Positions 10,158-58,941 of a stretch of DNA of 64,000 bases are shown here, piece by piece. The stretch lies in IMG/VR virus record IMGVR_UViG_3300033508_000321; one strand, written 5' to 3'. This stretch comes from a virus. Made by a program: the position numbers and the translations under genes. The notes under the pieces are model-generated. The model saw only the letters and a list, made by a program, of their open reading frames with translations. It was not told where the DNA came from and searched no databases. The stretch's first letter is position 1; every line of letters starts with the position of its first letter.

Positions 10158-10221
10158 AATTTTAACAAAAATGTATAAAAATTTTGTATCGGGCACGCTA
10201 AGAATTTACTTTGTTAAAATT
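10158..10221. repeat. 12-bp perfect inverted repeat AATTTTAACAAA / TTTGTTAAAATT in the divergent control region
   Basis: Arms at 10158-10169 and 10210-10221 with a 40-bp spacer. Each arm contains the TTAACAA half-site. Confidence 0.8.
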
Positions 10222-10232
10222 TTGTTATTGAT

Positions 10233-21884: not shown

Positions 21885-22066
21885 TTTAAAACTAACCAAA
21901 ACGAGTAAAAATATTATATAAACCAGTGAAAAAATATGAGAAGCGCACCAACCTAAAAGTGCTTGGGTTAACTAACCCGATACAAAGGTAAAATTTTTGC
22001 GCAAAGGTTTACGTCATTAACAAAATTTTAACATGATGGACTATTGACAAATACAAAAATCGGGTT

Positions 22067-22074
22067 TATCTTTG
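22067..22074 (+). promoter_or_regulatory. TAnnTTTG (-7-type) box for the tRNA, with TTGACA 17 nt upstream
   Basis: TATCTTTG lies 10 nt before the tRNA 5' end. TTGACA is at 22044-22049. Confidence 0.5.
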
Positions 22075-22083
22075 TAACATCAT

Positions 22084-22154
22084 TGCGGGATAGTGTAATG
22101 GTAAAACGCTGGTCTCATAAGCCAAAGCTGGTAGTTCGATTCTATCTCCCGCAA
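22084..22154 (+). tRNA. tRNA with anticodon CAU (Met, or Ile2 if lysidine-modified)
   Basis: Hand fold: acceptor TGCGGGA/TCCCGCA, D-loop with GG, anticodon loop CUCAUAA, T-arm GGTAG-TTCGATT-CTATC, discriminator A. 71 nt, no encoded CCA. Confidence 0.75.
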
Positions 22155-22194
22155 CTTAGATTCATCCTAAGTTTGTTTTTCTGTTAGGTTTTAG

Positions 22195-26375: not shown

Positions 26376-26499
26376 AAAAAATGTAAAAATTTTGTGCATT
26401 TTTTACACATATTAAAAATATGTGTTCTATGTGGGCAAAATCTATATTTTTAACAAATCAATAACAAAGTAGTTAACAACCCTTTAACAATTGATGATT

Positions 26500-26933: not shown

Positions 26934-26994
26934 AAAAATGGTATTAACAAACAGTTAACAACAACCAAAGAAAAACATAGATAATTTTACACCT

Positions 26995-32248: not shown

Positions 32249-32289
32249 ATTATTAACAACCAGTTAACAAATCACTAGCTATAAATTTA

Positions 32290-35504: not shown

Positions 35505-36724
35505 GTTTACAAGATCAGATTAAGAAGATAAACGAAATGTACGGTAAAAACGTAATAAAACAGGGTAGTGAGCTACAAGCGGTGCTTAAAGTACCGATGC
35601 GTGAGCCTATACTTGACTACGTTTTGGGTGGTGGATTACCGACCGGCAGAATAATAGAATTTCTTGGTGATGAGCATACCGGAAAAACTCGTGATAGTTA
35701 CGTAGCCTTGGAACGTTTTCAGCATTTTTGCTTTGCTTGTGGTGGTTCTGATACGTTGCAAGCAGAGTGGGAAAATAGCACCGGATTTCCAAAACTTGTA
35801 TCTGCAACGTGCTCGAATTGCGAAAACCCTAGAACGTGTATTCAGGTCATTATTGACTATGAAAATACAACGGATAAAGACTTCTTGATAAAGTATTTTG
35901 ACGTGGATTTAAACGGGGTTCTTTTCAACGTGAGTGATACACCGTCTATGCTGATTAATACCGTAGAAACGTTTCTACGTAGCCCGGAAATCGGTCTTAT
36001 CATTGTGGATTCAATGGGTAGCATTAGCAGCGATGCCGAAATAGATTCACGCATGGAAGATATAAAAATGAATAGTGGCGCAAGAAACACAAATACTGCT
36101 GTACGTAAATGGCAAGCCGCTTTGAACTTCAACAGCAATAGCGTAGCACACCAAATACCTACAACGTGCATAGTGATTAATCGAGAGTACGAGACCCTAA
36201 GCATTTACAGTGCAAAAGTACCGCAGGGTGGCCGTGGTTTACGCCATGCGAAAAGCATATCCATATCCCGAAAAATCAAAGAAAAGGTGCAAGTAAAAAC
36301 ACCGAACGGTGACGTGGTAGTAGGTATTCACCGGTTGATTGAATCAAAGAAAAATAAGGCGGGAATGCCTTATCGAAAAGGTGAGGATTATCTGAATTTG
36401 GACATTAACAACCCTATTGGTTATGTTCGTGTAGATAGAGCAAGTCAGATTGTGGACATAGCTCTTCAGGAACGCATGGTAAAAAGTAGCGGCGGGTGGT
36501 TCCAGATTGGTGATGATAAATTTCACGGACGGGCGGAACTGATGAAAGAAATAGATAATACCGAATTACCAAACAAAATAGATTTATTAGTATATGGAAA
36601 ATCATTGGCTACAAGCGCAGGAAAAACCAAGCCGGAAACAAAGCCAGAAGCAGGAATTGAAACTGGCAAAAAGACTACAGGGAAAAGTAACAGCAAACTC
36701 GGGGGCGGCAAAAAACCAAAATGA
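35501..36724 (+). CDS. RecA-family recombinase with an inserted four-Cys zinc ribbon and a Lys-rich tail
   Basis: 'LDYVLGGGLPTGRIIEFLGDEHTGKT' (Walker A). 'LIIVDSMGS' (Walker B). Insert 'CFACGG...CSNCENPRTC'. Confidence 0.75.
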   Translation: MSLQDQIKKINEMYGKNVIKQGSELQAVLKVPMREPILDYVLGGGLPTGRIIEFLGDEHTGKTRDSYVALERFQHFCFACGGSDTLQAEWENSTGFPKLVSATCSNCENPRTCIQVIIDYENTTDKDFLIKYFDVDLNGVLFNVSDTPSMLINTVETFLRSPEIGLIIVDSMGSISSDAEIDSRMEDIKMNSGARNTNTAVRKWQAALNFNSNSVAHQIPTTCIVINREYETLSIYSAKVPQGGRGLRHAKSISISRKIKEKVQVKTPNGDVVVGIHRLIESKKNKAGMPYRKGEDYLNLDINNPIGYVRVDRASQIVDIALQERMVKSSGGWFQIGDDKFHGRAELMKEIDNTELPNKIDLLVYGKSLATSAGKTKPETKPEAGIETGKKTTGKSNSKLGGGKKPK

Positions 36725-36923
36725 TGTAGTGAGTAAAGATCACGAATTTGAGATTAAGTACACCGATGCTGCCAGTTATAAGTTGAACATCTCAGACCTT
36801 GAGAAACTAGAGCGCAAATGTAGTATGAACCGTGAGCCGGTCTTTTTGGTGGAATTCCGTCAAATTGGTAAGACCTATGCCATAGTAGAATTAGGATATT
36901 TAGAAACTCTGGTTAAGTTTTAA
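36594..36923 (+). CDS. Small PD-(D/E)xK nuclease, Holliday-junction-resolvase-like (start uncertain)
   Basis: It has the E...SG...D...ExK arrangement: 'ELKLAKRLQG', 'NSGA', 'NDVV', 'FEIKY'. ATG 36594 overlaps the recombinase gene by 131 nt. An alternative start is TTG 36657. Confidence 0.5.
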   Translation: MENHWLQAQEKPSRKQSQKQELKLAKRLQGKVTANSGAAKNQNDVVSKDHEFEIKYTDAASYKLNISDLEKLERKCSMNREPVFLVEFRQIGKTYAIVELGYLETLVKF

Positions 36924-37068
36924 CAACTTATTTACAATTTTAGGAAACTTTGTTAAAAACTTGTTAATTTCTTATAGATTTTAACAAATCATTAACAAAG
37001 TTTCCTTTTATAATTTATTGGTGTTTAACAACTTATTAACAAATGCTGCTTTATCTTTGTTGTATAAA
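36920..37068 (+). repeat. 149-bp intergenic cassette, copy A
   Basis: Direct repeat at 36920-36937 and 37025-37042. Inverted arms AGGAAACTTTGTTAA 36942-36956 and TTAACAAAGTTTCCT 36992-37006. TATCTTTG at 37052-37059. Confidence 0.9.
37052..37059 (+). promoter_or_regulatory. TAnnTTTG box of cassette A
   Basis: TATCTTTG at cassette offset 132. Confidence 0.5.
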
Positions 37069-37102
37069 TTTTTAAACAGAAAACAACTAAAATTTTAAAA
37101 TC

Positions 37103-38263
37103 ATGACAACAATCAATTTCAACCCAAAACGAACCACTCAGGTTAAAGACGATTTTCGTTTTTACAAAGTAATAGAATCAGCCTTTGAAATTAAGGCAGA
37201 GGAGGTAGCAATACCTTACGAAACGGTGTATTCGAGTCGTACGGGTATGACCATGGCAATCAGAGCACGCATCCCCGCCGATGTACGTATAGTAGATTGT
37301 GAAACCCAGCGTACGAAATTCAACGACAAAATTTCACTGTCACAAATAGGACGCAAAGGCACACCAATGATTATCCTACATGAATGGAAAGATAGTCAAA
37401 CCGTAACCTTTGCAATCAGCGAAGCAAAGTACGGTATATGGAAACAAGCAGAAACTGAACTCAATGTTTTCTGTATATACAAGTCCGACAACACAAAGGA
37501 TCATACATATCAACTTAATGTTCACACTTGTAAGAGGGATAACCTCCGTGAGCTGCATCGCATAATAAGCCCTATGGCTGGGTTTGACCAGCCAAAAATA
37601 GGTGAGGAGTCAATAAGTATATTCAAAAACTTGGTAGTTGACCGCTTCGATGATTATTTCATCACATCGAAGGGGTGTGCGTACTACAAGTTTGGCAGGT
37701 ACAATCCGCTGGTGGAGTTCGATATGCTAATTCCCGGAAATGATTATTGGGAAGTTGCGAACGAGACAGGAATGGATGAGCGTACGTACAACGTATTGAA
37801 GCGCATGCGTACTGAGTTTACGGTGGTTACATATGGTATGCTATATGCCGAAATAACCATGACCCACCTTGAAATAGGTGAGGATTTTGCTGTATTTACA
37901 AATGGTAAAAAACAGCTATATATCTACGAAGGCAGTACACAGTACTATGAGTACGAGGATGAAAAAGGCGAATGCACAGCATCTGAAATGCGTTACAGCT
38001 GCCGCAAAAAAGAAATTTTTTACTTGCGTAGCCAGAATGACGCCGCAAGAATTTTAGAAAAAATAAATAGTATATCAGACGATACCGTTTTTACGGTAAC
38101 TGATTCGTATCTTGCTGGTAACTGCGCGGTTGGTACCAGCAATTTTATGAAAAAATATAATTTAAAAAGCCCCATCAGTATTGGTGACCTAAGGCAGCAC
38201 CCTCAGTATGTCGAGTTGCTAAGTAACGCTAGATTTCTAGCGGTGCTAGTTGGGAAAGAGTAG
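37103..38263 (+). CDS. Hypothetical protein (cargo of cassette A)
   Basis: 386 aa. No motif recognised. Bracketed by cassette A and the GGGGCGAAAGCCCC hairpin. Confidence 0.7.
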   Translation: MTTINFNPKRTTQVKDDFRFYKVIESAFEIKAEEVAIPYETVYSSRTGMTMAIRARIPADVRIVDCETQRTKFNDKISLSQIGRKGTPMIILHEWKDSQTVTFAISEAKYGIWKQAETELNVFCIYKSDNTKDHTYQLNVHTCKRDNLRELHRIISPMAGFDQPKIGEESISIFKNLVVDRFDDYFITSKGCAYYKFGRYNPLVEFDMLIPGNDYWEVANETGMDERTYNVLKRMRTEFTVVTYGMLYAEITMTHLEIGEDFAVFTNGKKQLYIYEGSTQYYEYEDEKGECTASEMRYSCRKKEIFYLRSQNDAARILEKINSISDDTVFTVTDSYLAGNCAVGTSNFMKKYNLKSPISIGDLRQHPQYVELLSNARFLAVLVGKE

Positions 38264-38271
38264 TAAAAAAC

Positions 38272-38288
38272 GGGGCGAAAGCCCCTTT
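38272..38288 (+). terminator. GNRA-loop hairpin terminator GGGGC-GAAA-GCCCC (copy 1 of 3)
   Basis: Identical 14-mer at 38272, 54228 and 58956, here followed by TTT. Confidence 0.6.
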
Positions 38289-38382
38289 AAAACCTAGATA
38301 ATTATGTTTTAATATGAATTTTTTAGATATAGAAGTTTCGGAGAAACTTATACTCTGTAAGTAATTAATAAGCTAAAGTAAC

Positions 38383-38616
38383 ATGATACACGATTTGGAC
38401 AACGTTTTATTAAGCCCTCGTATAGAGGCAACATGGCTGACAATGCTAACTACTATGAGTAGTGAGCTTATGGAGAAATACCCTGATTTAACACTGGGTG
38501 AAGTACCCGACGAACAGTTACGGGTACTACCAAGTGGTAATGCCGAGTTATTCATCCAAGTTCGTGAAAGCGAACTGAAACTAGCAGTACCAAGGGACGA
38601 ATACGCAATAGTTTAA
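38383..38616 (+). CDS. Hypothetical protein
   Basis: 77 aa with an ATG start. Confidence 0.45.
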   Translation: MIHDLDNVLLSPRIEATWLTMLTTMSSELMEKYPDLTLGEVPDEQLRVLPSGNAELFIQVRESELKLAVPRDEYAIV

Positions 38617-39776: not shown

Positions 39777-41446
39777 GAGTATTCGATGCATTAAAAACTG
39801 ACTGGCTTGGACGTGGTGAAAACTATGTGAAACGTGCAGAATTAACTTTTGATTTGTTAACGCTTGAACCTTATTCTACTTTCATGTACAAAATACCGGC
39901 GGGTGCAGTTAGTTTCGTACAACCGCTCACCACTAAATTTGTCAGCACGATAAAACCGGTGACGATAAAGTATAGCGATAAAGGTAGCAGCACTGATGGT
40001 AAGCAAATTATAATCAGCACCGAGCCAGAGGCTACTTTAGAACCACAGAAAGCGTTGGACGTGATGATCGGTCTGGGATGCCGTGAAGTAGCGCACATCA
40101 TGTATACAACATTTGAGGTGGAGAAAAATGAGGTTTTGCGAGCGATTATAAACATTGTAGAGGATGAACGTATAGAGGATCGAATGGTAACAGATTTGCC
40201 CGGCGTTTTTCCATTCTTACAGCGTGCAAAAGCGTTCTTTTTTGACAGAATACCCGATGCGCCTAAAAACGAATTACAAGAGATATTTTTGGCCTTTTTA
40301 CGCTTAGTACGTTACCCTGCTACACTACCCGAGGAATTAGCTGATAAGTATAATGATGTGCTGGAACAGATACTTGAAATCTTGACACCGTACCCGAGCA
40401 CGTTCGAAGAGGTAAAAATTGCATCGAAAAAAATATACGAACTGTTTCTACAATTCATGGACGAGCAAGAAGAACAGCAACAACGGAATGAGCAAGGCGA
40501 AAGTGAGGATGTGGAAGAGGGCGAAGGGCAAAGCAGTGGTGAGGAATCTACTGAGGAAAAAATGCTACGTATGCTGAAAAGTTTGGCGCAAGCATTAGAA
40601 CCAGAGGTAGAAGGTGAAAAGCCAGAGGATACTCGAATACTACCAACCGAGGGCACGTGTGATGTATTTTCGGTAAGGTGGCAAAAACCCGGCGGAATGA
40701 TAAAAGGTAAACCTGACTTAAGTAGCGTAGCAGCTATCCGCCGTGAATTTCTACCGATTGACTATACCAAGAAACACGTGCTACACAATAAAAATAGCGG
40801 TAGCTTAGATGATACTGAACTGGTACGAGGCTTTGCCGGTAGTAAGAACATCTACGAGGTAACATCATACGGAAAAGCCGATATTTTGAATCTTGTTCTT
40901 TTGGTGGATCAATCTGGTAGCATGGATGGTAGCCGAATAGAAATGGCAAGAAACGTAGCTATAATCGTGAGGGAAGCAACACGTGGATTTTCATTTATTC
41001 GCTTTTTTGCTTATGGTCATTCTACTGAGGATAGTGGTAGACCTACACCTACGGACTTAGATATTTTTTGCGAAAAGGGCGTGGATAAATTGGATTCGAT
41101 ACAAGCGAAAAATGCTTGCAATCGTGATGGTAGCGCAATCATGGAGGTTACTGCTCGAGTACAAGCATTAAGCCCCTACAAAACTGTTATTCTGATGATC
41201 AGCGATGGCCAACCGAATGCCTTAGTACCACACGGGTTTACGGATGAAAGTTTTATACGTCACGCAGTAAAATTTGCGGAAAAACGGAAAACCAAAATAG
41301 CACACATAAGCATGGTAGGTTTATCGTGGAAAAACGTATACGCATACGAGATGGATGCAAGCAGTAATTTTACCATGAAAATGGTACTGATGCTTAGACA
41401 GGTATTGAAAGATAATTTTGCTCAAAATGTGTTAACAAAACTTTAA
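39773..41446 (+). CDS. vWA-domain protein (CobT / NorD-like partner of the AAA+ ATPase)
   Basis: MIDAS 'LVLLVDQSGSMDG', with a later 'MISDGQPN'. An acidic low-complexity stretch 'EEQQQRNEQGESEDVEEGEGQSSGEESTEE' lies mid-protein. Confidence 0.75.
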   Translation: MRVFDALKTDWLGRGENYVKRAELTFDLLTLEPYSTFMYKIPAGAVSFVQPLTTKFVSTIKPVTIKYSDKGSSTDGKQIIISTEPEATLEPQKALDVMIGLGCREVAHIMYTTFEVEKNEVLRAIINIVEDERIEDRMVTDLPGVFPFLQRAKAFFFDRIPDAPKNELQEIFLAFLRLVRYPATLPEELADKYNDVLEQILEILTPYPSTFEEVKIASKKIYELFLQFMDEQEEQQQRNEQGESEDVEEGEGQSSGEESTEEKMLRMLKSLAQALEPEVEGEKPEDTRILPTEGTCDVFSVRWQKPGGMIKGKPDLSSVAAIRREFLPIDYTKKHVLHNKNSGSLDDTELVRGFAGSKNIYEVTSYGKADILNLVLLVDQSGSMDGSRIEMARNVAIIVREATRGFSFIRFFAYGHSTEDSGRPTPTDLDIFCEKGVDKLDSIQAKNACNRDGSAIMEVTARVQALSPYKTVILMISDGQPNALVPHGFTDESFIRHAVKFAEKRKTKIAHISMVGLSWKNVYAYEMDASSNFTMKMVLMLRQVLKDNFAQNVLTKL

Positions 41447-41504
41447 CAAGCGTACGGGTAAGTAACTAAGTGAAATACAACTATATTTACAAGAAATAAA
41501 CAAC

Positions 41505-44688: not shown

Positions 44689-45041
44689 CACTTGACCCAA
44701 ATAGTACTCTCAGCGATTACTATTCAATGTTTTGTGCTGACGCACAAATTACAAATAAGAAAAACACCATGAAAACAATGACTCGGACAGAAAAAAGAAA
44801 TACTTTATTACTTGCTAAAGTAACAGTAAGCCCACTAACGGTGGAATCAGAGAAAGCCTTTTTTAAAAGCCGGGTTAAAGAGCAGCATTTAGCTCTTATT
44901 GTGACTGATGATAACCTTTGGAAAGGATACCAGAGTTACAACGCTCTGATGAAAGAATCGGGTGATACCGATTACAAACACCTAACTTCTAAAGAAGTAT
45001 TAGTACTGAGGGAGGAAATAAAAAAGGAATTTAACTTATGA
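44673..45041 (+). CDS. Hypothetical protein
   Basis: 122 aa. Its ATG is nested in the C-terminal motif of member 4. Confidence 0.5.
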   Translation: MRSEITLDPNSTLSDYYSMFCADAQITNKKNTMKTMTRTEKRNTLLLAKVTVSPLTVESEKAFFKSRVKEQHLALIVTDDNLWKGYQSYNALMKESGDTDYKHLTSKEVLVLREEIKKEFNL

Positions 45042-45421
45042 TTGTTACCCTATTCCATGATTACGAAGTAGTAAAAAAGCTACGTACCTCAACACTTGTG
45101 CGCATCTTTTTTGACCGCAAAGGTAAGAATACTGATGTATTTTACCTATCCGCTAAACAACTGGATAAGCTGCATGCATCATACAGCAAAGTACAAAATT
45201 CAAGGGTAAAAGATACCCACGGGTTGGTTGTTATTGATGATGATAGATTTGTATGGTCTGGTGTTGAATTTCCTGATTATTCAGACCGTGAAAACCTTTG
45301 TAAGCATTTTTCTGGCGGTTTTTCATCTATTTACGAGAAAGTAGAAGTTACAAAGGAAACGCACACCCCCGAAGAAGTAAAACCCGTAGAAACAAAACCG
45401 AATGATGATCTTGTTAGATGA
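45038..45421 (+). CDS. Hypothetical protein
   Basis: 127 aa. ATGA overlap. Confidence 0.5.
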   Translation: MIVTLFHDYEVVKKLRTSTLVRIFFDRKGKNTDVFYLSAKQLDKLHASYSKVQNSRVKDTHGLVVIDDDRFVWSGVEFPDYSDRENLCKHFSGGFSSIYEKVEVTKETHTPEEVKPVETKPNDDLVR

Positions 45422-46598
45422 CCAGGCAAAAGCATTTGAAAAGCTAAAAACCCTTAAAGTAGGTGCACTTTTCATGTCACCGGGTGCGGGTAAAACCCTA
45501 ACAGCCTTTGAGCTTATTCATAGTGTAGAAGGTATTAACTACGTGTTATGGTTAACACCCTTTCAGACGAAAGAAAATTTGCGCAAAGAATTAACAGAGT
45601 ATGGTGGTTTTGACTTTGCCCATGATGTAGTGGGTATAGAAACACTTTCATCATCTGATGCTGTTTATCTGAAATTAAGTAAGAAGATACAAGAGCATAA
45701 CACATTTATAGTGTGTGATGAAAGCCTGAAAATAAAAAATTTGGCGGCAAAGCGTACCCAAAGAATCCTAGAACTGAGCAAATTTTGTGAGTACAAACTC
45801 ATATTGAATGGTACACCGCTAAGCAAGAATGTAATGGATTTATGGGCACAGTTACAATTCCTTAGCCCTAAAATACTAAATATGCCTTTGGCTCAGTACA
45901 AGAGTGTATTCGTGAAATACACCACCATCACGAAGAAAATAAACGGCTATAAAGTAACAAGGGAGTTTATCGATGGCTACGCCAATATTGATTACCTGTA
46001 CTCACTTATTAAACCCTACGTGTACGAGTGTGACCTTACAGTAAATGTAGAAAAACATTATGTAGAGTACATTTATGAGGTAGGTGAAGAAGCAAAAGAA
46101 GAGTATAACAGGTTAAAAAAGTTCATGTCTGAGCATGAATATTTGCTTTTCAGGAATAACAACGTATTCTTGGAACTGATACAAAACTTACAAATGGCTT
46201 ACTGTACAGTACCTGAAAAATTCGAACTCCTGGGGTGGGTGCTTACTCAGGTAGAACCAAAGAAAACCATTGTTTTTTGTAAATTTATACGTAGTGTTGA
46301 ATCCATTAGTAAGAAATTTCCATACCTTAAAGTACTGACCTACGGTAAACACGCATACGGGTTAAATTTGCAGGAATATAATACGGTTGTATTTTGGGAT
46401 AAAACCTTTGATTATGCGTTACGATTACAAGCCGAAAGGCGTATCTTTAGAACCGGGCAAACTGATATTTGTACGTATTATGACCTAACAGCTAGTACGG
46501 GTTTGGATAACATGATAAACGGAAATATAGAGCGGAAAGAATCCATGCTCAGTTACTTTAAGAAAATAGCATTTAAAACTTTTATTGAAAACTTATGA
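45402..46598 (+). CDS. SNF2-family helicase / ATPase
   Basis: Walker A 'SPGAGKTLTAFE'. 'VCDESLKIKN'. 'LNGTPLSKNVMDLWAQLQFLSP' (SNF2_N). Motif VI 'LQAERRIFRTGQT'. Confidence 0.8.
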   Translation: MMILLDDQAKAFEKLKTLKVGALFMSPGAGKTLTAFELIHSVEGINYVLWLTPFQTKENLRKELTEYGGFDFAHDVVGIETLSSSDAVYLKLSKKIQEHNTFIVCDESLKIKNLAAKRTQRILELSKFCEYKLILNGTPLSKNVMDLWAQLQFLSPKILNMPLAQYKSVFVKYTTITKKINGYKVTREFIDGYANIDYLYSLIKPYVYECDLTVNVEKHYVEYIYEVGEEAKEEYNRLKKFMSEHEYLLFRNNNVFLELIQNLQMAYCTVPEKFELLGWVLTQVEPKKTIVFCKFIRSVESISKKFPYLKVLTYGKHAYGLNLQEYNTVVFWDKTFDYALRLQAERRIFRTGQTDICTYYDLTASTGLDNMINGNIERKESMLSYFKKIAFKTFIENL

Positions 46599-47143
46599 AA
46601 AAAGCAGCGTTTAAAAGCCCTGTGTACAGTGTTGTAGCTGTACCGATTTATAAAATTGAGGCAAATAACTACAATCCAAACCACGTTGCAAAGCGTGAAA
46701 TGGACTTACTCTACCAAAGCATAAAATGTGATGGGTACACTATGCCTATTGTATGTTTCTATGATGATGAAAGGGATAAATACATTATCGTGGATGGTTT
46801 TCACCGTTATACGATTATGCTCAAATACAAAGATATTTTTGAGCGAGAAAATGGTATGTTACCGGTATCAGTTATTCACAAAGATCTAAGTGACCGAATG
46901 GCTTCAACAATTCGTCATAACAGGGCACGAGGTAAACATGAAGTGGAACTGCAAGCATCTTTAGTCGGGATGTTAAAATCTGGGTGGGATGAGCTAAAAA
47001 TAATGAAAGAGCTGGGCATGACCTTAGAAGAAGTACAACGTTTGATAGGTTTACGTGGTATAGCAAGTGAGATAAAAGGTGTACCTTATTCAATCGAACG
47101 CCAAATAATAGAAGCAGGGGAGGACGTTACTGATGAAGATTAA
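46595..47143 (+). CDS. ParB-like nuclease-domain protein (IbrB-like)
   Basis: 'NNYNPNHV', 'IIVDGFHRYTIM' and 'TIRHNRARGKH' fit the ParB/Srx-fold IbrB-type pattern as I recall it. Confidence 0.7.
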   Translation: MKKAAFKSPVYSVVAVPIYKIEANNYNPNHVAKREMDLLYQSIKCDGYTMPIVCFYDDERDKYIIVDGFHRYTIMLKYKDIFERENGMLPVSVIHKDLSDRMASTIRHNRARGKHEVELQASLVGMLKSGWDELKIMKELGMTLEEVQRLIGLRGIASEIKGVPYSIERQIIEAGEDVTDED

Positions 47144-47714
47144 ATTTATAGTAATGACCAGCGAGGATCCTAAAAGGATTGAAAATGTACAAAAAATGGA
47201 AATTCCGGACTTAGTAATTTACAGGGGTGATAACGATGACGTATTTCAAAAGTATCTTAATTGTTTTATCCTAGAATCTGAGTATGATGGCGTGCTAGTA
47301 CTTGAGGATGATGTACAACTTTGCTGGGATTTTTATACTAAAGTGTTAGGTATAATTCAAAAATATGCCAGTGATGTGATTAGCTTTTTTGAAAAGCCTA
47401 ATTCTAGACAGGTACTTGAAAAAGGTTTTAGGCCGGGGCGTGACTTTATGTTCAACCAGTGTAATTATTACCCTAAAGCTACATGTGAGTTATTTTTAGG
47501 TTCGGAAAACGTAGCTGAGTTTAAAAACTCATATTTCACTAAATACAAAGTTTGGGTAGCCCCGATCGATATTTACATAGCACACGTGCTAAGTAAATAC
47601 AAGTTAGAGTACCTTATGTACTTACCTTTTTTGGTGCAGCATTTACCCTTTAAATCTATTTTGGGTAACAGGTCTACCAAACGTCAAACCAAATTTTTTA
47701 TAGATGACCTATGA
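47133..47714 (+). CDS. Glycosyltransferase-like protein (GT25-like, tentative)
   Basis: 193 aa. 'IKFIVMTSEDPKRIENVQKM' and 'VLVLEDDVQLCWDF' resemble the GT25 N-terminus and EDD motif. Confidence 0.4.
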   Translation: MKIKFIVMTSEDPKRIENVQKMEIPDLVIYRGDNDDVFQKYLNCFILESEYDGVLVLEDDVQLCWDFYTKVLGIIQKYASDVISFFEKPNSRQVLEKGFRPGRDFMFNQCNYYPKATCELFLGSENVAEFKNSYFTKYKVWVAPIDIYIAHVLSKYKLEYLMYLPFLVQHLPFKSILGNRSTKRQTKFFIDDL

Positions 47715-48868
47715 AAAGAACTACAACGCTGGGCACGGAAAACGTGTTGGAATCTACACTAAAACGTATTGCTTACCTGTTTGATCACTATGATAATATT
47801 TCCTTATCATTCTCTGGTGGTAAAGATAGCACTGCTTTGTTTCATTTGGTGAATAACGAGGCTGTGAAACGTGATAGGAAATTTATTCTATACTTTCAAG
47901 ATCAGGAAGCAGAGTATCAGGGTACTATTGACCTAATGGAATGGGCTATGACTAGGCCAAACGTAATACCACTTTGGTATCAAGTACCGATTTTTATGAC
48001 CAATGCAGCTAGTCACCAACAACTATTTTTGTGGGCGTGGGGTGAGGGTGAAAAATGGGTGCGAGAAAAGCATCCGATGGCCATACAATCTATTGATGGA
48101 AAATATCCTAAGCGGTTTTATAAGTTTAACTTGTGGGTAGGTCAGCAACTAAGAAAATTGCCCGGAAATCATGTATCAATAATCGGATTAAGAGCCGAAG
48201 AAAGCCCTGATAGACGTTTTGTGATGTTTGGCGAAGACAGTGATTTGTTTTGGTTACGTAGAAAAACAGAGCCACATAAAGCATATCCTATTATTGATTG
48301 GGCATATACCGATGTGTGGAAGTACCTTATTGAAGGTAGTTACAGGTACAATAACGTGTATGATAAGATGTATATGCTAGGTGGTAATTTACGCCAATTC
48401 AGGGTTTCAAATTTGGTGCATGAAAAGGCATTCCGGTGTTTAACTGATTTGCAGGAATTAGAACCTGAAACGTATGATAAGTTAGAAGAACGTTTGCAGG
48501 GTGTACATACGGCAGCTATCTATGGCAAAGAAGCCTTGATTTATTCGATAAAAACCTTACCGGAAAGTTTTAAAACATGGAAAGAGTACAAGGATTTTCT
48601 ACTAAGTAGTATACACCCAGACCTGAGCAAATTGTTTCGTTATCAATGGTCACGTTTTGGTGATACGGACGATGTACGAGCTTGTAAATACATGGTAAAA
48701 CGTATTCTATTATGCGACTGGGAGGGTAACATCAAAGAACAGGATTGGATGAAATACTACCCTGAGTGGACTGTTAATAAATTCAACTACACCAAGGAAC
48801 AGATACTAGAAAAAAATAGGCAGAAACGTGAAGATCCAGTAATAAATAAATGGATGGCCAAGCTGTGA
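47711..48868 (+). CDS. PAPS reductase-family PP-loop protein (IbrA / DndC-like)
   Basis: PP-loop 'LSFSGGKDSTALFHL'. 'IIGLRAEESPDRR'. A long C-terminal extension follows. Confidence 0.75.
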   Translation: MKRTTTLGTENVLESTLKRIAYLFDHYDNISLSFSGGKDSTALFHLVNNEAVKRDRKFILYFQDQEAEYQGTIDLMEWAMTRPNVIPLWYQVPIFMTNAASHQQLFLWAWGEGEKWVREKHPMAIQSIDGKYPKRFYKFNLWVGQQLRKLPGNHVSIIGLRAEESPDRRFVMFGEDSDLFWLRRKTEPHKAYPIIDWAYTDVWKYLIEGSYRYNNVYDKMYMLGGNLRQFRVSNLVHEKAFRCLTDLQELEPETYDKLEERLQGVHTAAIYGKEALIYSIKTLPESFKTWKEYKDFLLSSIHPDLSKLFRYQWSRFGDTDDVRACKYMVKRILLCDWEGNIKEQDWMKYYPEWTVNKFNYTKEQILEKNRQKREDPVINKWMAKL

Positions 48869-48874
48869 AATGTT

Positions 48875-48906
48875 AAAACGCTGCTTAATTGCAGCGTTTT
48901 TTATTA
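48875..48906 (+). terminator. Rho-independent terminator
   Basis: AAAACGCTGC-ttaatt-GCAGCGTTTT followed by a T-rich run. Confidence 0.7.
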
Positions 48907-48926
48907 TTTTTGTTAAAATAAATGCA

Positions 48927-48934
48927 TAGATTTG
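48927..48934 (+). promoter_or_regulatory. TAnnTTTG box
   Basis: TAGATTTG, 17 nt upstream of ATG 48952. It lies inside the longer track ORF that starts at 48922. Confidence 0.45.
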
Positions 48935-48951
48935 TAAAAATTTTACATTTT

Positions 48952-49827
48952 ATGGACATAAACGAATTAAAAGAACTCATAAAACCCGCTTTTGCAAGCG
49001 TCGGTAAACTACCAAAAGAAGAGGCGAAGAACTACGGTAATTACAAATTGATGCCGGTAGAGATATTGGTGAAAGCGGGTTGGAATTACAAGCAAGAAAA
49101 CCCGTATACGAGTGATAAACTAAACGCTAATTTAAAGCGTAACGGGCAGGTAGAAAATATACAAGTACGATTACTTGATACAGGTTACTACGAGGTAGTA
49201 AATGGTAACCACCGCTTAGATGAAATCATAAAACTTGGGCGCAAAATGGTGGTGGTTTATGACCATGGAAAAGTAAGTTTAGCCGAGGCGAAGCGTATTG
49301 CCATTGAAACAAACGAAACGAAATTTAAAGCGGAAGAAACGCTTTTGGCGGAAGCAATCCGAGAACTCGAAGCAGAATTTGGCTTAGAAGACCTAGAGCA
49401 AACATTACCATTCTCGGATGAAGAAATGGAAAAAATGATGTCGGAAATGGATTCTGAGTTTGAGGAACCAACACAGGGTAATTATACACGCAAGATTGAA
49501 TCGCCTACCTATGAGCCAAAGAATGAAAAACCGCACACCATAGACTTGTACGACAAAAGCAAGTATGAGCAACTTTTAGAGGGTATAGAGGGTAGCTCAG
49601 CAGATCCAGAGGTTAAGATGTTTCTAAAAATTGCGGCGGCAAGGCACATAGTTTTTGACTATTCTAAGATAGCCGATTTTTATGCGCACAGCGATGCACA
49701 GGTACAACGTTTGATGGAGGATTCAGCACTCGTAATTATAGACTTTAATAGAGCTATTGAGCTAGGTTTTGTGCAGTTATCGGAGAATATAGCAAAACAA
49801 TACACAGAGGATTATGGAAAAGCCTAA
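48952..49827 (+). CDS. ParB-like nuclease-domain protein (second copy) with acidic linker and C-terminal domain
   Basis: 'YYEVVNGNHRLDEI' (DGxHR-type motif). I prefer ATG 48952 because the box at 48927 sits inside the alternative start at 48922. Confidence 0.65.
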   Translation: MDINELKELIKPAFASVGKLPKEEAKNYGNYKLMPVEILVKAGWNYKQENPYTSDKLNANLKRNGQVENIQVRLLDTGYYEVVNGNHRLDEIIKLGRKMVVVYDHGKVSLAEAKRIAIETNETKFKAEETLLAEAIRELEAEFGLEDLEQTLPFSDEEMEKMMSEMDSEFEEPTQGNYTRKIESPTYEPKNEKPHTIDLYDKSKYEQLLEGIEGSSADPEVKMFLKIAAARHIVFDYSKIADFYAHSDAQVQRLMEDSALVIIDFNRAIELGFVQLSENIAKQYTEDYGKA

Positions 49828-50677
49828 AGATTTTTGCATTTTTATTATCTCACATGGTAGGCCTGATAAGGTAATGACGTGGAATACTTTGAAAAAAGTT
49901 GGTAATACATCACCAGTTTACATTGTTATAGATGATACGGATAAAACATCGGAAAAATACTACACTAATTTCGGTAAAGAAACAGTAGTGATGTTCGATA
50001 AAGAAGCGATAGCCAAAACTACGGATCATGGAGATAATTTTTGGAACCTACGCACAACTACTCACGCACGAAATGCTTGCTTCGACATAGCTAAAAAATT
50101 AGGGTACACGTACTTTTTAGTGCTAGACGATGATTATACCTACTTTGCGTACACGGCAGACGATGCCTTTAACTACAATAGTAAGGGCACACCAGTAAAA
50201 GATATAAATAAAACTTTTTGTTTGTTTATCGATTTTTACAAGAGTATTCCAGCACTTAGTGTATGTTTTGCTCAAGGGGGCGACTTTGTGGGCGGCGAAA
50301 ATTCTGCTGTATTTAAAAAAGAACTATCAAGAAAGGCTATGAACTCGTGGTTTTGTTCTGTAGATCGCCCCTTTAAATTCATAAGTAGGTTGAATGAGGA
50401 TGTTAACACTTACTTGTGTCTGGGTGCCACAGGCGGTTTATTCTTTACAGTTACGTGGATAAGACTTGAGCAGATACAAACGCAGCTAAATTCAGGTGGA
50501 ATGACGGAGGCATACCTAGAAGGTGGTACATACGTAAAATCATTCTACACAGTGATGTACTGTCCATCTTTTGCTAAGGTAGGATTAATGGGTAACACCA
50601 ATAAAAGGTTGCACCATAGAATATCATGGAATAATGCAGTACCTAAGATTGTAAATGAAAATATTAGAAAAATATGA
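49814..50677 (+). CDS. GT-A-like glycosyltransferase candidate (DxD motif)
   Basis: 287 aa. 'FIISHGRPDKVMTWNTLKK', 'YIVIDDTD' and 'FLVLDDDYTYF'. The assignment is tentative. Confidence 0.4.
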   Translation: MEKPKDFCIFIISHGRPDKVMTWNTLKKVGNTSPVYIVIDDTDKTSEKYYTNFGKETVVMFDKEAIAKTTDHGDNFWNLRTTTHARNACFDIAKKLGYTYFLVLDDDYTYFAYTADDAFNYNSKGTPVKDINKTFCLFIDFYKSIPALSVCFAQGGDFVGGENSAVFKKELSRKAMNSWFCSVDRPFKFISRLNEDVNTYLCLGATGGLFFTVTWIRLEQIQTQLNSGGMTEAYLEGGTYVKSFYTVMYCPSFAKVGLMGNTNKRLHHRISWNNAVPKIVNENIRKI

Positions 50678-51168
50678 AAAAGAAAGAAAAAATTTGGGCG
50701 GAGGTTCAACCAAAAATATACGATGAAAAATACCACGATATAAAGATGGAAGAATTGGTGATGGAAGGGTTAACGTTGCAAGAAATTGCAGAAAAATTGG
50801 CGGTAGAATATCGAACATTAACAAAATGGTTAGTACGTTACCCATCACTGGCAGAAGCATTCAATCGTGGACGTATACCGAGAGATTTGGCGGTGGAAAA
50901 TGCCCTTTACAAGAGAGCTATTGGATATACGTATGAAGAAAAAATAGCTGAGTCAACTGGTACGATGGAGGAGGCGGAGGGGAAAAAAAGGGCGGGAAAA
51001 TTCCGAAGAGTAACAAAACATATGCCACCAGATGTAGAAGCAATAAAGATGTGGTTAAGTAATAAAAAACCACACCTGTGGTCAAACACTCAAAAGATAG
51101 ATGTAACATCGAAAGGACAACAAATGCCGATTGTAATGATAGGTGCACCACCGGAAGAGGAAAAATAG
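50674..51168 (+). CDS. Terminase small subunit-like HTH protein (gp3-type), or a regulator
   Basis: HTH 'LTLQEIAEKLAVEYRTLTKWL'. 'ALYKRAIGYTYEE' and 'PPDVEAIKMWLSNKKPHLW' fit small-terminase patterns. It lies 12.4 kb upstream of the terL start in this window. Confidence 0.45.
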   Translation: MKKKEKIWAEVQPKIYDEKYHDIKMEELVMEGLTLQEIAEKLAVEYRTLTKWLVRYPSLAEAFNRGRIPRDLAVENALYKRAIGYTYEEKIAESTGTMEEAEGKKRAGKFRRVTKHMPPDVEAIKMWLSNKKPHLWSNTQKIDVTSKGQQMPIVMIGAPPEEEK

Positions 51169-51336: not shown

Positions 51337-51427
51337 AATTTTGTATGCTGATAATTAACAAGCTATTAACAATAAGTAAAAAGTTAATTAACTATTTTTA
51401 CATGGTCACTAAATATGTTAAAAACCG

Positions 51428-53879: not shown

Positions 53880-53896
53880 CAAATAAGAAAAACACA

Positions 53897-54220
53897 ATGG
53901 AAACTCAATTAGCAATCAGAACCAGACAACAAGAAATAGCTCAAACTATACTGGAACAACTAGGTGGATTAAATCGTTTAAATGCGATGTTAGGCTTAAA
54001 AGACTTGATGGTAAACGGTTATGGCCTCAGTTTCAAAATCAGCGTAAAAGCAGCCGCAAACTATGTAAACATCACATTAACCAGTGATGGTCTGTACTAC
54101 GTAGAATTGGGTAAAATTCGTGGCAAATCTTACAACATAGTAGCTAACTTTCAAGGCGTGTATGCTGACCAATTGAAAAGCATAATCGAAGATACAGCAA
54201 AAGTAAGACTATCATTATAA
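53897..54220 (+). CDS. Hypothetical protein (cargo of cassette B)
   Basis: 107 aa. Bracketed by cassette B and the GGGGCGAAAGCCCC hairpin. Confidence 0.65.
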   Translation: METQLAIRTRQQEIAQTILEQLGGLNRLNAMLGLKDLMVNGYGLSFKISVKAAANYVNITLTSDGLYYVELGKIRGKSYNIVANFQGVYADQLKSIIEDTAKVRLSL

Positions 54221-54227: not shown

Positions 54228-54241
54228 GGGGCGAAAGCCCC
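54228..54241 (+). terminator. GNRA-loop hairpin GGGGC-GAAA-GCCCC (copy 2 of 3)
   Basis: Identical 14-mer. The T-tract after this copy is weak. Confidence 0.45.
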
Positions 54242-58448: not shown

Positions 58449-58597
58449 TTAACAACTTATTTACAATTAAAGGAAACTTTGTTAAAAACTTGTTAATTTC
58501 TAATAGATTTTAACAAATCATTAACAAAGTTTCCTTTTATAATTTATTGGTGTTTAACAACTTATTAACAAATGATGCTTTATCTTTGTTGTATAAA
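58449..58597 (+). repeat. 149-bp intergenic cassette, copy C
   Basis: Same offsets as the other copies: arms at 58471-58485 and 58521-58535, TATCTTTG at 58581-58588. Confidence 0.9.
58581..58588 (+). promoter_or_regulatory. TAnnTTTG box of cassette C
   Basis: TATCTTTG, 26 nt before ATG 58615. Confidence 0.5.
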
Positions 58598-58614: not shown

Positions 58615-58941
58615 ATGAGAACTTTAACAAGCAGTTTCACAAGATTAGAGGAAAACACACTTTTTTCCGCTGAATTTCAACAAGCATTAACAGAAGTGCA
58701 AAATATGGTACTGGGATTAAGCCCAATGAAAGCCGAACAGGGAAAGTTATACGCAGCGGAAGCAGCCGGGGAACTTTCCGAGTACGAGGTTGACAAGCTG
58801 GTAGAAACTACCATAGTTGAGCACAAGAAATTCACGGCAAAGTTCTACAAATTGGAACTTAACGATGATGACCAAGGGCAGTATTCAGCTACCGAGGGTG
58901 CGTTTTTTGCCTCCGGTGTAGCCACACTAACAATATACTAG
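58615..58941 (+). CDS. Hypothetical protein (cargo of cassette C)
   Basis: 108 aa. Bracketed by cassette C and the GGGGCGAAAGCCCC hairpin. Confidence 0.65.
   Translation: MRTLTSSFTRLEENTLFSAEFQQALTEVQNMVLGLSPMKAEQGKLYAAEAAGELSEYEVDKLVETTIVEHKKFTAKFYKLELNDDDQGQYSATEGAFFASGVATLTIY

What the first reader, a model, noticed from the sequence alone, without database searches (positions are those of the whole stretch)
36920..38288. 149-bp non-coding cassette (copy A of 3) plus an orphan 386-aa gene plus a GGGGCGAAAGCCCC hairpin: a triplicated self-contained expression unit
Nt 36920-37068, 53731-53879 and 58449-58597 are collinear. There are no indels and only a handful of substitutions by eye.

Every copy has the same parts at the same offsets:
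- An 18-nt direct repeat TTAACAACTTATT(T/A)ACAA at offsets 0 and 105.
- Perfect 15-nt inverted arms AGGAAACTTTGTTAA / TTAACAAAGTTTCCT at offsets 22 and 72, enclosing an inner TTGTTAA...TTAACAA palindrome.
- A T-run after the right arm.
- An exact TAnnTTTG box (TATCTTTG) at offset 132.

In copies A and B the cassette begins on the stop codon of the upstream gene (2 nt after it in copy C). Each is followed by exactly one gene with no recognisable motif. That gene is closed by the identical GNRA-loop hairpin GGGGC-GAAA-GCCCC (38272, 54228, 58956).

The non-coding DNA is conserved far better than the unrelated cargo genes. That implies selection on the cassette itself (a shared regulator, an RNA element, or a terminator-plus-promoter insulator) or recent copy-paste of a mobile promoter module. 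The copy A cargo (37103-38263) is the largest orphan protein in the window.
Basis: seen in the sequence. Interest (0 to 1): 0.8.

Follow-up and report, generated by a model that had tools for sequence, protein, structure and literature searches.

The report
Repeated phage terminator-promoter regulatory cassette
A 149-base non-coding block found four times in a roughly 66-kb phage genome of Bacteroidota type is most likely a combined stop-and-restart signal for transcription that carries binding sites for a shared regulator: a known kind of phage gene-control module in a new guise, not a new system.

Summary
Three collinear copies, 92-97% identical and without indels, lie between unrelated flanks. 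A fourth, degenerate copy lies in the 2.2 kb that closes the circular genome.

All 16 substitutions among copies A, B and C avoid the eight TTAACAA heptamers, the stem extension and the TATCTTTG box (P = 3.6e-6). The motifs are therefore under selection.

The "18-nt direct repeat" is a general regulatory site, TTAACAA-N4-TTAACAA. It occurs four times per cassette and at seven other intergenic loci. It sits 9, 19-20 or 32 nt upstream of a Bacteroidota -7 box. The same 18-mer precedes TAnnTTTG at sharply preferred distances (30, 20 nt) in more than 100 unrelated viral contigs.

Best reading: a composite terminator, regulator-site and promoter cassette, like the PeSLs of T4-type phages.

The "self-contained unit" claim is only partly supported. 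The GGGGCGAAAGCCCC hairpin follows the first gene in 4 of 4 units. However, it lacks a sense-strand U-tract, no promoter follows it, and in unit A it splits a gene pair conserved in a crAss-like phage.

The 386-aa cargo is not an orphan: it has 23 distant relatives of unknown function. The factor that binds the 18-mer is unidentified.

The parts
36920..37068 (+). Cassette copy A (149 nt): terminator-like hairpin, four 18-mer sites and a promoter
36920..36937 (+). 18-mer site 1 (TTAACAA-CTTA-TTTACAA). Its TAA is the stop codon of upstream ORF 36594-36923
36942..37006 (+). Interrupted hairpin: 15-bp outer stem, 4x4 internal loop, 7-bp inner stem. The arms contain 18-mer site 2 (reverse, 36950-36967) and site 3 (forward, 36981-36998). 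The hairpin is followed by TTTTATAATTTATT
   Evidence: RNA fold -26 kcal/mol, z = -5.8; heptamer positions
37025..37042 (+). 18-mer site 4, next to the promoter, 9 nt upstream of the -7 box. There is no TTG/TTTG -33 element
37052..37059 (+). TATCTTTG, a Bacteroidota-type -7 box. TATCTTTGTTGTATAAA matches the class consensus TATaTTTGta.TATAA
37103..38263 (+). Cargo A, 386 aa. Member of an uncharacterised family with a conserved C-terminal DS..GNC..GT..F..H domain
38265..38292 (+). 28-nt element AAAAAAC-GGGGCGAAAGCCCC-TTTAAAA (GNRA hairpin at 38272-38285)
38383..38616 (+). 77-aa gene, the conserved partner of cargo A. It is 51% identical to the gene directly after the cargo-A homologue in crAss-like contig L011
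53731..53879 (+). Cassette copy B
53897..54220 (+). Cargo B, 107 aa, phrog_9437 (function unknown). Homologues occur in many unrelated phages
54228..54241 (+). GNRA hairpin B
58449..58597 (+). Cassette copy C, after the ThyX-like gene 57628-58446
58615..58941 (+). Cargo C, 108 aa, no match in Pfam, PHROGs, NCBIfam or by tblastn against the phage collection
58956..58969 (+). GNRA hairpin C. The next ATG is 17 nt downstream
26450..26490 (+). Two tandem 18-mers upstream of the dUTPase gene. The proximal one is 9 nt from TAAATTTG (26500)
26944..26961 (+). Single 18-mer, 20 nt upstream of TAATTTTA, before gene 26995
32253..32270 (+). Single 18-mer, 19 nt upstream of TACTTTTG, before gene 32346
41432..41449 (+). 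Single 18-mer before the Cas4-like exonuclease gene 41505. TATATTTA lies 32 nt downstream and TAATTTTG lies 11 nt upstream
51355..51372 (+). Single 18-mer, 20 nt upstream of TATTTTTA, before gene 51428. TAATTTTG lies 11 nt upstream
22017..22034 (+). 18-mer with 1 mismatch, 32 nt upstream of TATCTTTG. This promoter has a -33 TTG and precedes tRNA-Met
10211..10228 (-). 18-mer with 1 mismatch, in the divergent intergenic region between the only minus-strand gene (9614-10129) and the prohead protease gene

Best explanation
The cassette is a composite transcription punctuation module: terminator, regulator sites and promoter. The phage is a roughly 66-kb myovirus-type phage of a Bacteroidota host.

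Proposed mechanism:

1. Transcripts of the upstream operon end at the long interrupted hairpin and its U-rich tail (inferred).
2. Host RNA polymerase restarts at the TATCTTTG -7 box, about 45 nt downstream of the hairpin (inferred from consensus).
3. This promoter has no -33 TTG. In its place sits a TTAACAA-N4-TTAACAA 18-mer, and three more 18-mers lie upstream. Two of them form the hairpin arms.
4. The 18-mer consists of two 7-bp direct repeats, 11 bp centre to centre. This is the site architecture of tandem-binding factors such as OmpR/PhoB/ArcA-family response regulators, or of the two alpha-CTDs of RNA polymerase. It is probably bound by a conserved, most likely host-encoded, factor. That factor would co-regulate the four cassettes and seven other promoters of this phage (inferred; the factor and the sign of regulation are unknown).
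5. The first gene after each cassette is followed by a very stable GGGGC-GAAA-GCCCC hairpin. This most likely acts as a leaky attenuator or a 3'-end stabiliser, raising expression of the first gene relative to the genes behind it. It is unlikely to be a full stop (inferred).
6. As with PeSLs, the repeated copies can also serve as substrates for recombination. Copy D is a 44-nt deletion exactly between two heptamer repeats.
For: - Four copies with sharp boundaries, three of them starting on the upstream stop codon.
- Substitutions avoid all 80 motif positions (P = 3.6e-6).
- Hairpin -26 kcal/mol, z = -5.8, with 6-7 T in the first 10 nt from the last stem base.
- Many other intergenic regions of this phage carry TAnnTTTG 25-45 nt before the start codon. 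Start regions are A-rich and have no Shine-Dalgarno sequence, as in Bacteroidota.
- There are 20 18-mers in the window against 0.25 expected. All seven non-cassette loci are intergenic, although intergenic DNA is only 5.8% of the genome.
- The distance from 18-mer to -7 box falls into discrete classes in this phage: 9 nt (five sites), 19-20 nt (three sites) and 32 nt (three sites).
- In a variable-gap scan of IMG/VR, 115 distinct sites from more than 100 contigs peak at 30 nt (50 sites) and 20 nt (14 sites). Chi-square against a uniform distribution gives p of about 1e-124. The 30-nt class has the consensus 18-mer-aaTAAATTTG-N20-TATaTTTGta.TATAA.
- Inverted 18-mer pairs in other phages (L035, L036) have non-complementary spacers and no stem extension. 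The heptamers therefore look like protein-binding sites, and only this cassette adds GGAAAC/GTTTCC plus a T-run.
- Terminator hairpin plus 18-mer plus promoter also occurs in other contigs (L044, L124/L190/L196, L140).
- The GNRA hairpin follows the first gene in 4 of 4 units and occurs nowhere else. Chance is about 2.6e-7 for about 100 genes.
- The ArcA box has the same 18-bp architecture: two direct repeats 11 bp apart, with 3-5 repeats common (PMC3798270).
- PeSLs are defined by the same combination of stop codon, stem-loop and promoter, placed upstream of ORFans (PMC2839356).
Against: - There are no transcript data, so no transcription start or 3' end has been shown.
- The cassette promoter lacks a -33 element. 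The 9-nt spacing is rare elsewhere (2 of 115 sites), so at this position the 18-mer could repress rather than activate.
- No DNA-binding domain was found in about 55 phage ORFs scanned.
- Host-genome hits to the same promoter pattern have unrelated downstream genes.
- No diverged cassette homologue exists, so covariation cannot separate an RNA hairpin from a pair of protein-binding sites.
- Only four copies are present, against about 50 PeSLs per T4-type genome.
- Apart from the deletion in copy D, there is no evidence of cassette-mediated shuffling.
Confidence: 0.68

Rival explanations
1. Each cassette plus one gene plus the GNRA hairpin is a closed, monocistronic, moron-like expression unit. 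The hairpin is an efficient terminator, so the unit is insulated on both sides.
For: The association between cassette, first gene and hairpin holds in 4 of 4 units. The stem is stable at -11.4 kcal/mol. About 28 nt around the hairpin are conserved.
Against: The sense-strand tail has only 3-4 T in 8 nt, whereas bona fide terminators in this genome have long U-runs. No -7 box lies between the hairpin and the next ORF in units A, B or C, so downstream genes such as the AAA ATPase, the 501-aa methyltransferase and the 250-aa gene would lack a promoter. In unit A the hairpin separates a gene pair that overlaps in a crAss-like contig.
Confidence: 0.2
2. The cassette is a recently copied, mobile promoter module. 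The copies are alike only because they are young or homogenised by gene conversion, and no selection acts on the internal motifs.
For: Copies are 92-97% identical with sharply bounded homology. Copies B and C also share the leader through the ATG. Copy D shows repeat-mediated deletions.
Against: The 16 substitutions that did accumulate all avoid the 80 motif positions (P = 3.6e-6). The same heptamers and -7 box recur at independent loci in this phage and in other phages. No other carrier and no strain with different cargo was found in the viral or metagenome scans.
Confidence: 0.15
3. The heptamer arrays are iterons of replication origins, or terminase-binding (pac-like) sites, rather than transcription signals.
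For: The cassette has direct and inverted repeats at helical spacing in AT-rich DNA. In L036 an 18-mer cluster adjoins AT-rich tandem repeats, and in L087 heptamers are flanked by TTATCCACA boxes. A TerS-like gene (50674-51168) lies directly before an intergenic region with four heptamers.
Against: There are eleven separate loci per genome, each just upstream of a gene. Their distances to a -7 box fall into discrete classes. The same grammar holds in more than 100 contigs. An origin or pac site is normally unique.
Confidence: 0.05
4. The conserved block encodes a structured cis-regulatory RNA or a small RNA.
For: The fold is strong and significant (z = -4.6 for the whole cassette).
Against: There is no Rfam match. 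The predicted start lies downstream of the hairpin, so the hairpin belongs to the upstream transcript's 3' end. The stem is built from the same heptamers that occur unpaired elsewhere. There are no compensatory changes, because the stems are invariant.
Confidence: 0.04

Closest known systems
PeSLs (promoter-early stem-loops), the 'mobile regulatory cassettes' of T4-type phages (Arbiol et al. 2010, PMC2839356; Comeau et al. 2014, PMC4122927)
   Same: Both are repeated intergenic blocks that start at the upstream stop codon. Both combine a terminator or attenuator stem-loop with a host-type promoter. Both sit mostly in front of small genes of unknown function, outside and occasionally inside core modules. 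In both, the repeats can recombine; copy D here is a deletion between repeats.
   Different: There is no sequence relationship. The phage lineage and host phylum differ. The promoter grammar is Bacteroidota -7 TAnnTTTG rather than sigma70 -35/-10. There are 4 copies rather than about 50, and the copies are much longer and more uniform (149 nt, over 92% identical). The cassette embeds four 18-bp direct-repeat sites and is paired with a fixed 3' GNRA hairpin. Shuffling and mini-circles have not been shown.
Morons (promoter-gene-terminator insertions in lambdoid phages; own knowledge: Juhala et al. 2000, Hendrix et al. 2000)
   Same: A single accessory gene is preceded by its own promoter and followed by a hairpin, and is inserted between functional genes.
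   Different: The 3' hairpin is not a convincing sense-strand terminator. Cargo GC content (36-43%) is close to the genome's 39.5%. Absence from relatives could not be tested. In unit A the functional partner gene lies beyond the hairpin.
Binding sites of OmpR/PhoB-family response regulators (ArcA box, Pho box)
   Same: An 18-bp site of two 7-bp direct repeats, 11 bp centre to centre. Extra repeats lie in helical phase: sites 3 and 4 are 44 bp apart. The site can replace the upstream promoter hexamer (PMC3798270). The reverse strand, TTGTTAA-N4-TTGTTAA, resembles the ArcA core GTTAATTAAATGTTA (own knowledge).
   Different: No binding protein has been identified. Bacteroidota have no known ArcA. 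A link to a host regulon was not found.
UP elements of bacterial and Bacteroides phage promoters (alpha-CTD sites; 'UP elements' of P_BfP1E6 are mentioned in bioRxiv 10.1101/2025.03.18.644028, citing Whitaker et al. 2017)
   Same: In the commonest architecture (30-nt gap) the 18-mer lies directly upstream of the -33 TTTG. Placing the -7 box at about -11 to -4 puts it at about -59 to -42, the UP-element position, with two subsites.
   Different: In the cassettes the proximal 18-mer lies at about -38 to -21, inside the core promoter, where alpha-CTD is not expected to act. The sequence of the published UP elements could not be read (the paper is not held).

Membership tests
PeSL-type composite terminator/promoter cassette | Repeated intergenic motif, several copies per genome | tested here: met
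   4 copies, against about 50 per genome in phi1/RB49
PeSL-type composite terminator/promoter cassette | Contains a host-consensus promoter | tested here: inconclusive
   An exact TAnnTTTG -7 box with a class-consensus downstream flank, but no -33 element. Activity was not measured.
PeSL-type composite terminator/promoter cassette | Stable stem-loop able to terminate or attenuate upstream transcription | tested here: met
   Computationally only: -26 kcal/mol, z = -5.8, U-rich tail
PeSL-type composite terminator/promoter cassette | Sits preferentially in front of ORFans or plastic genes | tested here: met
   Cargo A, C and D have no functional assignment. Cargo B is a widespread protein of unknown function.
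PeSL-type composite terminator/promoter cassette | Mediates indels or gene swaps between related phages; mini-circles | not testable with these tools
   No related genome was found. The only hints are the 44-nt and 12-nt deletions between repeats in copy D.
Moron | Own terminator directly after the gene | tested here: not met
   The sense tail has 3-4 T of 8. There is no downstream promoter. A conserved gene pair straddles the hairpin.
Moron | Base composition differs from the surrounding genome | tested here: not met
   Cargo GC is 0.36-0.43 against a genome GC of 0.395
Moron | Absent from the same position in related phages | not testable with these tools
   No relatives are available
OmpR/PhoB/ArcA-type response-regulator site | Two direct repeats of about 7 bp, 11 bp centre to centre (18-bp box); extra repeats in phase | tested here: met
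   architecture as described in PMC3798270
OmpR/PhoB/ArcA-type response-regulator site | Bound by a winged-helix response regulator; belongs to a host regulon | tested here: inconclusive
   No such domain was found in the phage ORFs scanned. There were 22 host-genome hits, about 11 in Bacteroidota, with heterogeneous downstream genes. Binding cannot be tested here.
Intrinsic terminator (GNRA hairpin, sense strand) | GC-rich stem followed by a U-tract | tested here: not met
   1-3 consecutive U after the stem in all 4 copies. The antisense strand has 5-7 T of 8.
Iteron-type origin | A single locus with iterons, an AT-rich unwinding element and an adjacent initiator gene | tested here: not met
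   11 dispersed loci, each promoter-proximal
Any Rfam RNA family | Match at the gathering threshold | tested here: not met
   Only tRNA-Met matched in the window

The most novel reading that the evidence does not exclude
TTAACAA-N4-TTAACAA is the recognition site of one conserved host factor, for example an OmpR/PhoB-family response regulator that reports host physiological state. More than 100 unrelated Bacteroidota phages would then have recruited this site at discrete positions (-59, -49, -38) to activate or repress their promoters. In this phage the 149-nt cassette plus the 3' GNRA hairpin would form a portable 'socket' gated by that regulator. It would capture and express accessory genes and mediate their exchange by recombination.
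Probability: 0.18. Interest if true: 0.7.

Novelty: new variant of a known kind. Interest (0 to 1): 0.4.

Why it matters
Transcription signals of Bacteroidota phages are poorly mapped. This cassette, together with the spacing pattern of the 18-mer across more than 100 viral contigs, gives a concrete and testable promoter grammar: 18-mer, -33 TTTG, -7 TAnnTTTG.

It also gives a natural example of a terminator-promoter module with built-in regulator sites. If the 18-mer is bound by a host regulator, it would show how many phages of this phylum couple gene expression to host state. It would also offer compact parts for Bacteroidota synthetic biology.

For genome annotation, the cassette marks operon boundaries and flags four accessory genes likely to be strongly or specially expressed. 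These include a conserved gene pair of unknown function that is shared with crAss-like phages.

Tried and rejected
- Close relatives of the region. Megablast and blastn of the region and the cassette against 50,697 phage records gave no match. tblastn with cargo A and cargo C gave no match.
- Relatives found through proteins. The search for related loci with cargo A and UvsX in IMG/VR found none.
- Exact and degenerate cassette patterns in IMG/VR and in JGI metagenomes. Only this phage (L001 = JFJP01044535.1) plus chance hits. Covariation and strain comparison were therefore impossible.
- Three tandem heptamers in IMG/VR. The hits were mostly plain 11-mer tandem repeats, including some in giant viruses, and were uninformative.
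- The Pho-box idea. Hits in host genomes had heterogeneous downstream genes (CotH-like, VTC-like by my own reading of the sequences, a protease, a sensor kinase). Two literature searches found no Bacteroidota Pho box. The idea is neither supported nor excluded.
- A phage-encoded regulator. No DNA-binding domain was found in about 55 ORFs, and the weak HTH_23 hit turned out to be a TerS-like protein. The only minus-strand gene (9614-10129) has an HTH-like stretch but no homologues and no PDB match.
- Proteins shared between this phage and other 18-mer-bearing contigs. Only the cargo-A pair in L011.
- Structure of cargo A. The single-sequence model was useless (pLDDT 33). With 24 sequences only residues of about 320-386 were confident. 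Foldseek against PDB and BFVD gave nothing with E below 0.001. A profile search against PDB, Pfam and NCBIfam gave nothing.
- BLAST of a consensus promoter against cultured phages. Only marginal hits, to phages of Tenacibaculum and Polaribacter.
- Whitaker et al. 2017 could not be read because it is not held.
Full report
**1. The observation**

Pairwise identity over the 149 nt is 93.3% (A/B), 97.3% (A/C) and 91.9% (B/C). The 100 nt on either side are 20-41% identical, which is unrelated.

All the offsets hold. The 18-mer is at offsets 0 and 105, the 15-nt inverted arms at 22 and 72, and TATCTTTG at 132. The TAA inside the first TTAACAA is the stop codon of the upstream ORF in A and B. In C the stop lies 2 nt upstream.

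GGGGCGAAAGCCCC is exact at 38272, 54228 and 58956. It is absent elsewhere even with two mismatches, against an expectation of 0.10.

**2. A fourth unit and the genome**

A 26-nt core of the cassette found one IMG/VR contig, L001. L001 is 99% identical to window 58152-64000, then has 2,234 new bases, then matches window 1-3024. The genome is therefore circular or circularly permuted and about 66.2 kb long. The same proteins occur on a 66,454-nt NCBI WGS contig of project JFJP01 and in JGI sample 3300002026.

The gap contains copy D (L001 6978-7081). D again starts on the stop codon of the upstream gene, here a terminase large subunit. D lacks exactly 44 nt, lost between two ATTAACAAA repeats. 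This removes the right hairpin arm and the T-run. D also lacks 12 nt of the leader, including the ATG that B and C share.

A short ORF follows, 51 aa if it starts at a GTG. Five nt after its stop lies a fourth identical GGGGCGAAAGCCCC. So the pattern of cassette, first gene and hairpin holds in 4 of 4 units, and the hairpin occurs nowhere else. For about 100 genes, the chance of this is about 2.6e-7.

**3. The organism**

The window encodes portal, prohead protease, sheath, tape measure and baseplate proteins in its first 22 kb. After that come a tRNA-Met gene and then a replication and nucleotide-metabolism region: helicases, dUTPase, DnaB, primase, PolA, UvsX, a Cas4-like nuclease, ThyX-like and methyltransferases. 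Nearly everything is on the + strand.

The phage has no close cultured relative. The best UvsX hit is a Bacteroides phage at 32% identity.

Many intergenic regions carry TAnnTTTG 25-45 nt before the start codon, sometimes with TTG or TTTG about 20 nt upstream. Start regions are A-rich and lack a Shine-Dalgarno sequence. This is the promoter and translation grammar of Bacteroidota (own knowledge: -33 TTTG and -7 TAnnTTTG). Over the whole window TAnnTTTG is only mildly enriched, 98 found against 81.5 expected. Position therefore carries the signal, not the count.

**4. What is conserved inside the cassette**

Each cassette contains eight heptamers (TTAACAA, one of them TTTACAA) arranged as four 18-mers, TTAACAA-N4-TTAACAA. 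Site 1 is at offset 0 (forward) and site 2 at offset 30 (reverse). Site 3 is at offset 61 (forward) and site 4 at offset 105 (forward). Sites 2 and 3 are the hairpin arms.

The 12 positions that vary among A, B and C within the 149 nt, and 4 more just downstream, all fall outside the 80 positions occupied by the heptamers, the 8+8-nt stem extension and the -7 box. The hypergeometric P is 3.6e-6. The copies have therefore diverged, and their motifs are under purifying selection.

**5. The 18-mer is a genome-wide, promoter-linked site**

With at most one mismatch there are 20 18-mers in the window, against 0.25 expected. The eight outside the cassettes form seven loci. All seven are intergenic, although intergenic DNA is 5.8% of the genome, giving a chance of about 2e-9.

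The distance from 18-mer to a -7-type box falls into discrete classes (the 32-nt gaps were counted from the sequence):

| Gap | Sites |
|---|---|
| 9 nt | the four cassettes and the dUTPase promoter |
| 19-20 nt | 32253, 26944, 51355 |
| 32 nt | 22017, 26450, 41432 |

**6. The same grammar elsewhere**

It yielded 115 distinct 18-mers with a TAnnTTTG within 30 nt, from more than 100 contigs.

The gap distribution is very uneven: 30 nt (50 sequences in 46 loci), 20 nt (14), 29 nt (7), 7 nt (6) and 9 nt (2). Chi-square against a uniform distribution gives p of about 1e-124.

The 30-nt class has the consensus TTAACAAaatTTTAACAAaaTAAATTTG-N20-TATaTTTGta.TATAA. That is the 18-mer placed directly upstream of a canonical -33 TTTG.

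The cassette's TATCTTTGTTGTATAAA fits the downstream part of this consensus. This is the best available evidence that its -7 box is a real promoter of this class.

Some contigs carry many such promoters (L155). Several show a terminator hairpin followed by the 18-mer and the promoter (L044, L124/L190/L196, L140).

A fixed-gap scan of 185,579 species genomes gave 22 hits, about half of them in Bacteroidota. The downstream genes were heterogeneous.

**7. Protein site or hairpin?**

Probably both. In other phages, inverted pairs of 18-mers occur with 5- or 7-nt gaps, with non-complementary N4 spacers and no complementary flanks (L035, L036). This fits protein sites rather than a selected stem.

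Only this cassette extends the arms by GGAAACT/AGTTTCC and adds TTTTATAATTTATT. The RNA hairpin folds at -26 kcal/mol (z = -5.8). Its tail is T-rich only in the + direction.

I therefore read it as an intrinsic terminator built out of two regulator sites. Copy D lacks the right arm. It lies between the terminase and head genes, where read-through would be needed. This fits the terminator reading but does not prove it.

**8. What binds the 18-mer**

Two 7-bp direct repeats with 11 bp between centres, and extra repeats in phase, are the architecture of the ArcA box and of OmpR/PhoB-family sites in general (PMC3798270).

In the commonest arrangement the 18-mer lies at about -59 to -42, the UP-element position. 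A recent preprint refers to 'UP elements' in the Bacteroides phage promoter P_BfP1E6. I could not read the original paper.

The discrete positions (9, 20 and 30-32 nt), which reach into the core promoter in the cassettes, favour a transcription factor over alpha-CTD. Neither has been tested.

No DNA-binding domain was detected in about 55 phage ORFs scanned. Unrelated phages share the motif, and they share no protein within the loci I held. A host factor is therefore more likely. The sign of regulation at the cassettes is open.

**9. The GNRA hairpin**

It is very stable for its size, at -11.4 kcal/mol. On the sense strand only 1-3 U follow directly, or 3-4 T in the next 8 nt. On the antisense strand 5-7 T of 8 follow in all four copies. 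Clear terminators elsewhere in the genome have long U-runs.

No -7 box lies between the hairpin and the next gene, which is 97, 30 and 17 nt away in A, B and C.

In unit A the hairpin separates the 386-aa gene from a 77-aa gene. The homologues of these two genes (30% and 51% identical) are adjacent and overlapping in a crAss-like contig.

The hairpin is therefore unlikely to be a full stop in the sense direction. A leaky attenuator or a 3'-end stabiliser that raises expression of the first gene is the most economical reading. A terminator for antisense transcription is an alternative.

**10. The cargo**

*Cargo A.* It has no word-index homologue. A full HMMER scan of 1.84 billion representatives found 23 relatives. 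They share an N-terminal YYxSRSGxSGAG motif and a C-terminal domain with invariant D334, S335, G339, N340, C341, G344, F348 and F378. AlphaFold models only this C-terminal domain with confidence. No Pfam, NCBIfam, PDB or fold match was found. Members occur in a crAss-like phage, near a bacterial ftsK gene, and in a contig where HTH_3-family genes flank it.

*Cargo B.* It belongs to phrog_9437, a widespread phage protein of unknown function.

*Cargo C and the D ORF.* Neither has a detectable homologue.

**11. Comparison with known systems, and verdict**

The closest described systems are the PeSLs of T4-type phages. These are repeated intergenic blocks that start at the upstream stop codon. They combine a terminator stem-loop with a strong host-type promoter, sit in front of ORFans, and recombine with each other.

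This cassette works like a PeSL. It differs in promoter grammar, copy number and uniformity. It also differs in its embedded array of 18-bp sites and its fixed 3' partner hairpin. Shuffling has not been shown for it.

It fails two moron criteria: an own terminator and deviant base composition.

I rate it a new variant of a known kind, of moderate interest. The more interesting open question is what binds the 18-mer across so many Bacteroidota-type phage promoters.

Noticed in passing
window 37103-38263 and 38383-38616; L011 2980-4538: The 386-aa protein and the following 77-aa protein form a gene pair that is also adjacent, and overlapping, in a crAss-like phage contig with crAss_MUZ downstream. 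The 386-aa family has at least 24 clusters at 50% identity. It has an invariant C-terminal DS..GNC..GT..F..H motif and no known fold or function.
   Followed up: partly
more than 100 IMG/VR contigs (L117-L231), e.g. L155 with 6 matches in 10 kb: A widespread promoter grammar: TTAACAA-N4-TTAACAA, then aaTAAATTTG (-33), then N20, then TATaTTTGta.TATAA. The 18-mer sits 30, 20 or (rarely) 9 or 7 nt from the -7 box. This may correspond to the 'UP elements' reported for a Bacteroides phage promoter.
   Followed up: partly
window 45402-50677 and 54434-60848: An apparent DNA-hypermodification gene set. It includes a TET-associated glycosyltransferase (49814-50677, PF20691, 7e-32), two ParB-like proteins (46595-47143, 48922-49827) and a PAPS-reductase-like protein (47711-48868). 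It also includes three DNA methyltransferase-like genes (54434-55939, 56966-57625, 60420-60848) and a ThyX-like gene (57628-58446). No TET/JBP gene was identified among the ORFs scanned.
   Followed up: no
window 38272-38285, 54228-54241, 58956-58969; L001 7291-7304: The GNRA hairpin has a conserved A-rich tract on its 5' side. On the minus strand it therefore reads as a canonical terminator (GGGGC-TTTC-GCCCC followed by 5-7 T of 8) in all four copies. There are no minus-strand genes nearby.
   Followed up: partly
window 9614-10129 (-) and 10130-10232: This is the only minus-strand gene of the genome. It encodes a 171-aa protein with an HTH-like stretch (LKEVADMYSITPTTARLYFY). It has no homologue among 5.8 billion proteins and no Pfam, PHROG or PDB match. 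Its divergent intergenic region holds a 1-mismatch 18-mer. It is a candidate regulator.
   Followed up: partly
window 50674-51168; L001 5365-6981: A TerS-like gene (phrog_309, 1e-33) lies about 12 kb upstream of the TerL gene, inside the nucleotide-metabolism region. It is directly followed by an intergenic region with four TTAACAA heptamers.
   Followed up: no
window 44751-44776, 53879-53904, 58597-58622, 61646-61671: A conserved A-rich leader, ACAAATAAGAAAAACACCATG, occurs at four gene starts, including cargo B and cargo C. Copy D has lost 12 nt of it, including the ATG.
   Followed up: partly
L036 3950-4200; L087 and L065: In other viral contigs, TTAACAA 18-mer clusters adjoin AT-rich tandem repeats (L036) or are flanked by two TTATCCACA DnaA-box-like 9-mers (L087). 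The same heptamer may therefore also occur in origin-like regions.
   Followed up: no
window 22017-22155: tRNA-Met (CAT) at 22084-22155 has a textbook Bacteroidota promoter: TTG, then 19 nt, then TATCTTTG ending 9 nt before the tRNA. An 18-mer lies 32 nt upstream of the -7 box.
   Followed up: no
window 36594-36923: The ORF that ends on cassette A's first heptamer matches a Holliday-junction-resolvase PHROG (1e-16). As listed, it overlaps the UvsX gene by 130 nt. Gene callers on other contigs gave a shorter gene or none, so its true start is probably later.
   Followed up: no
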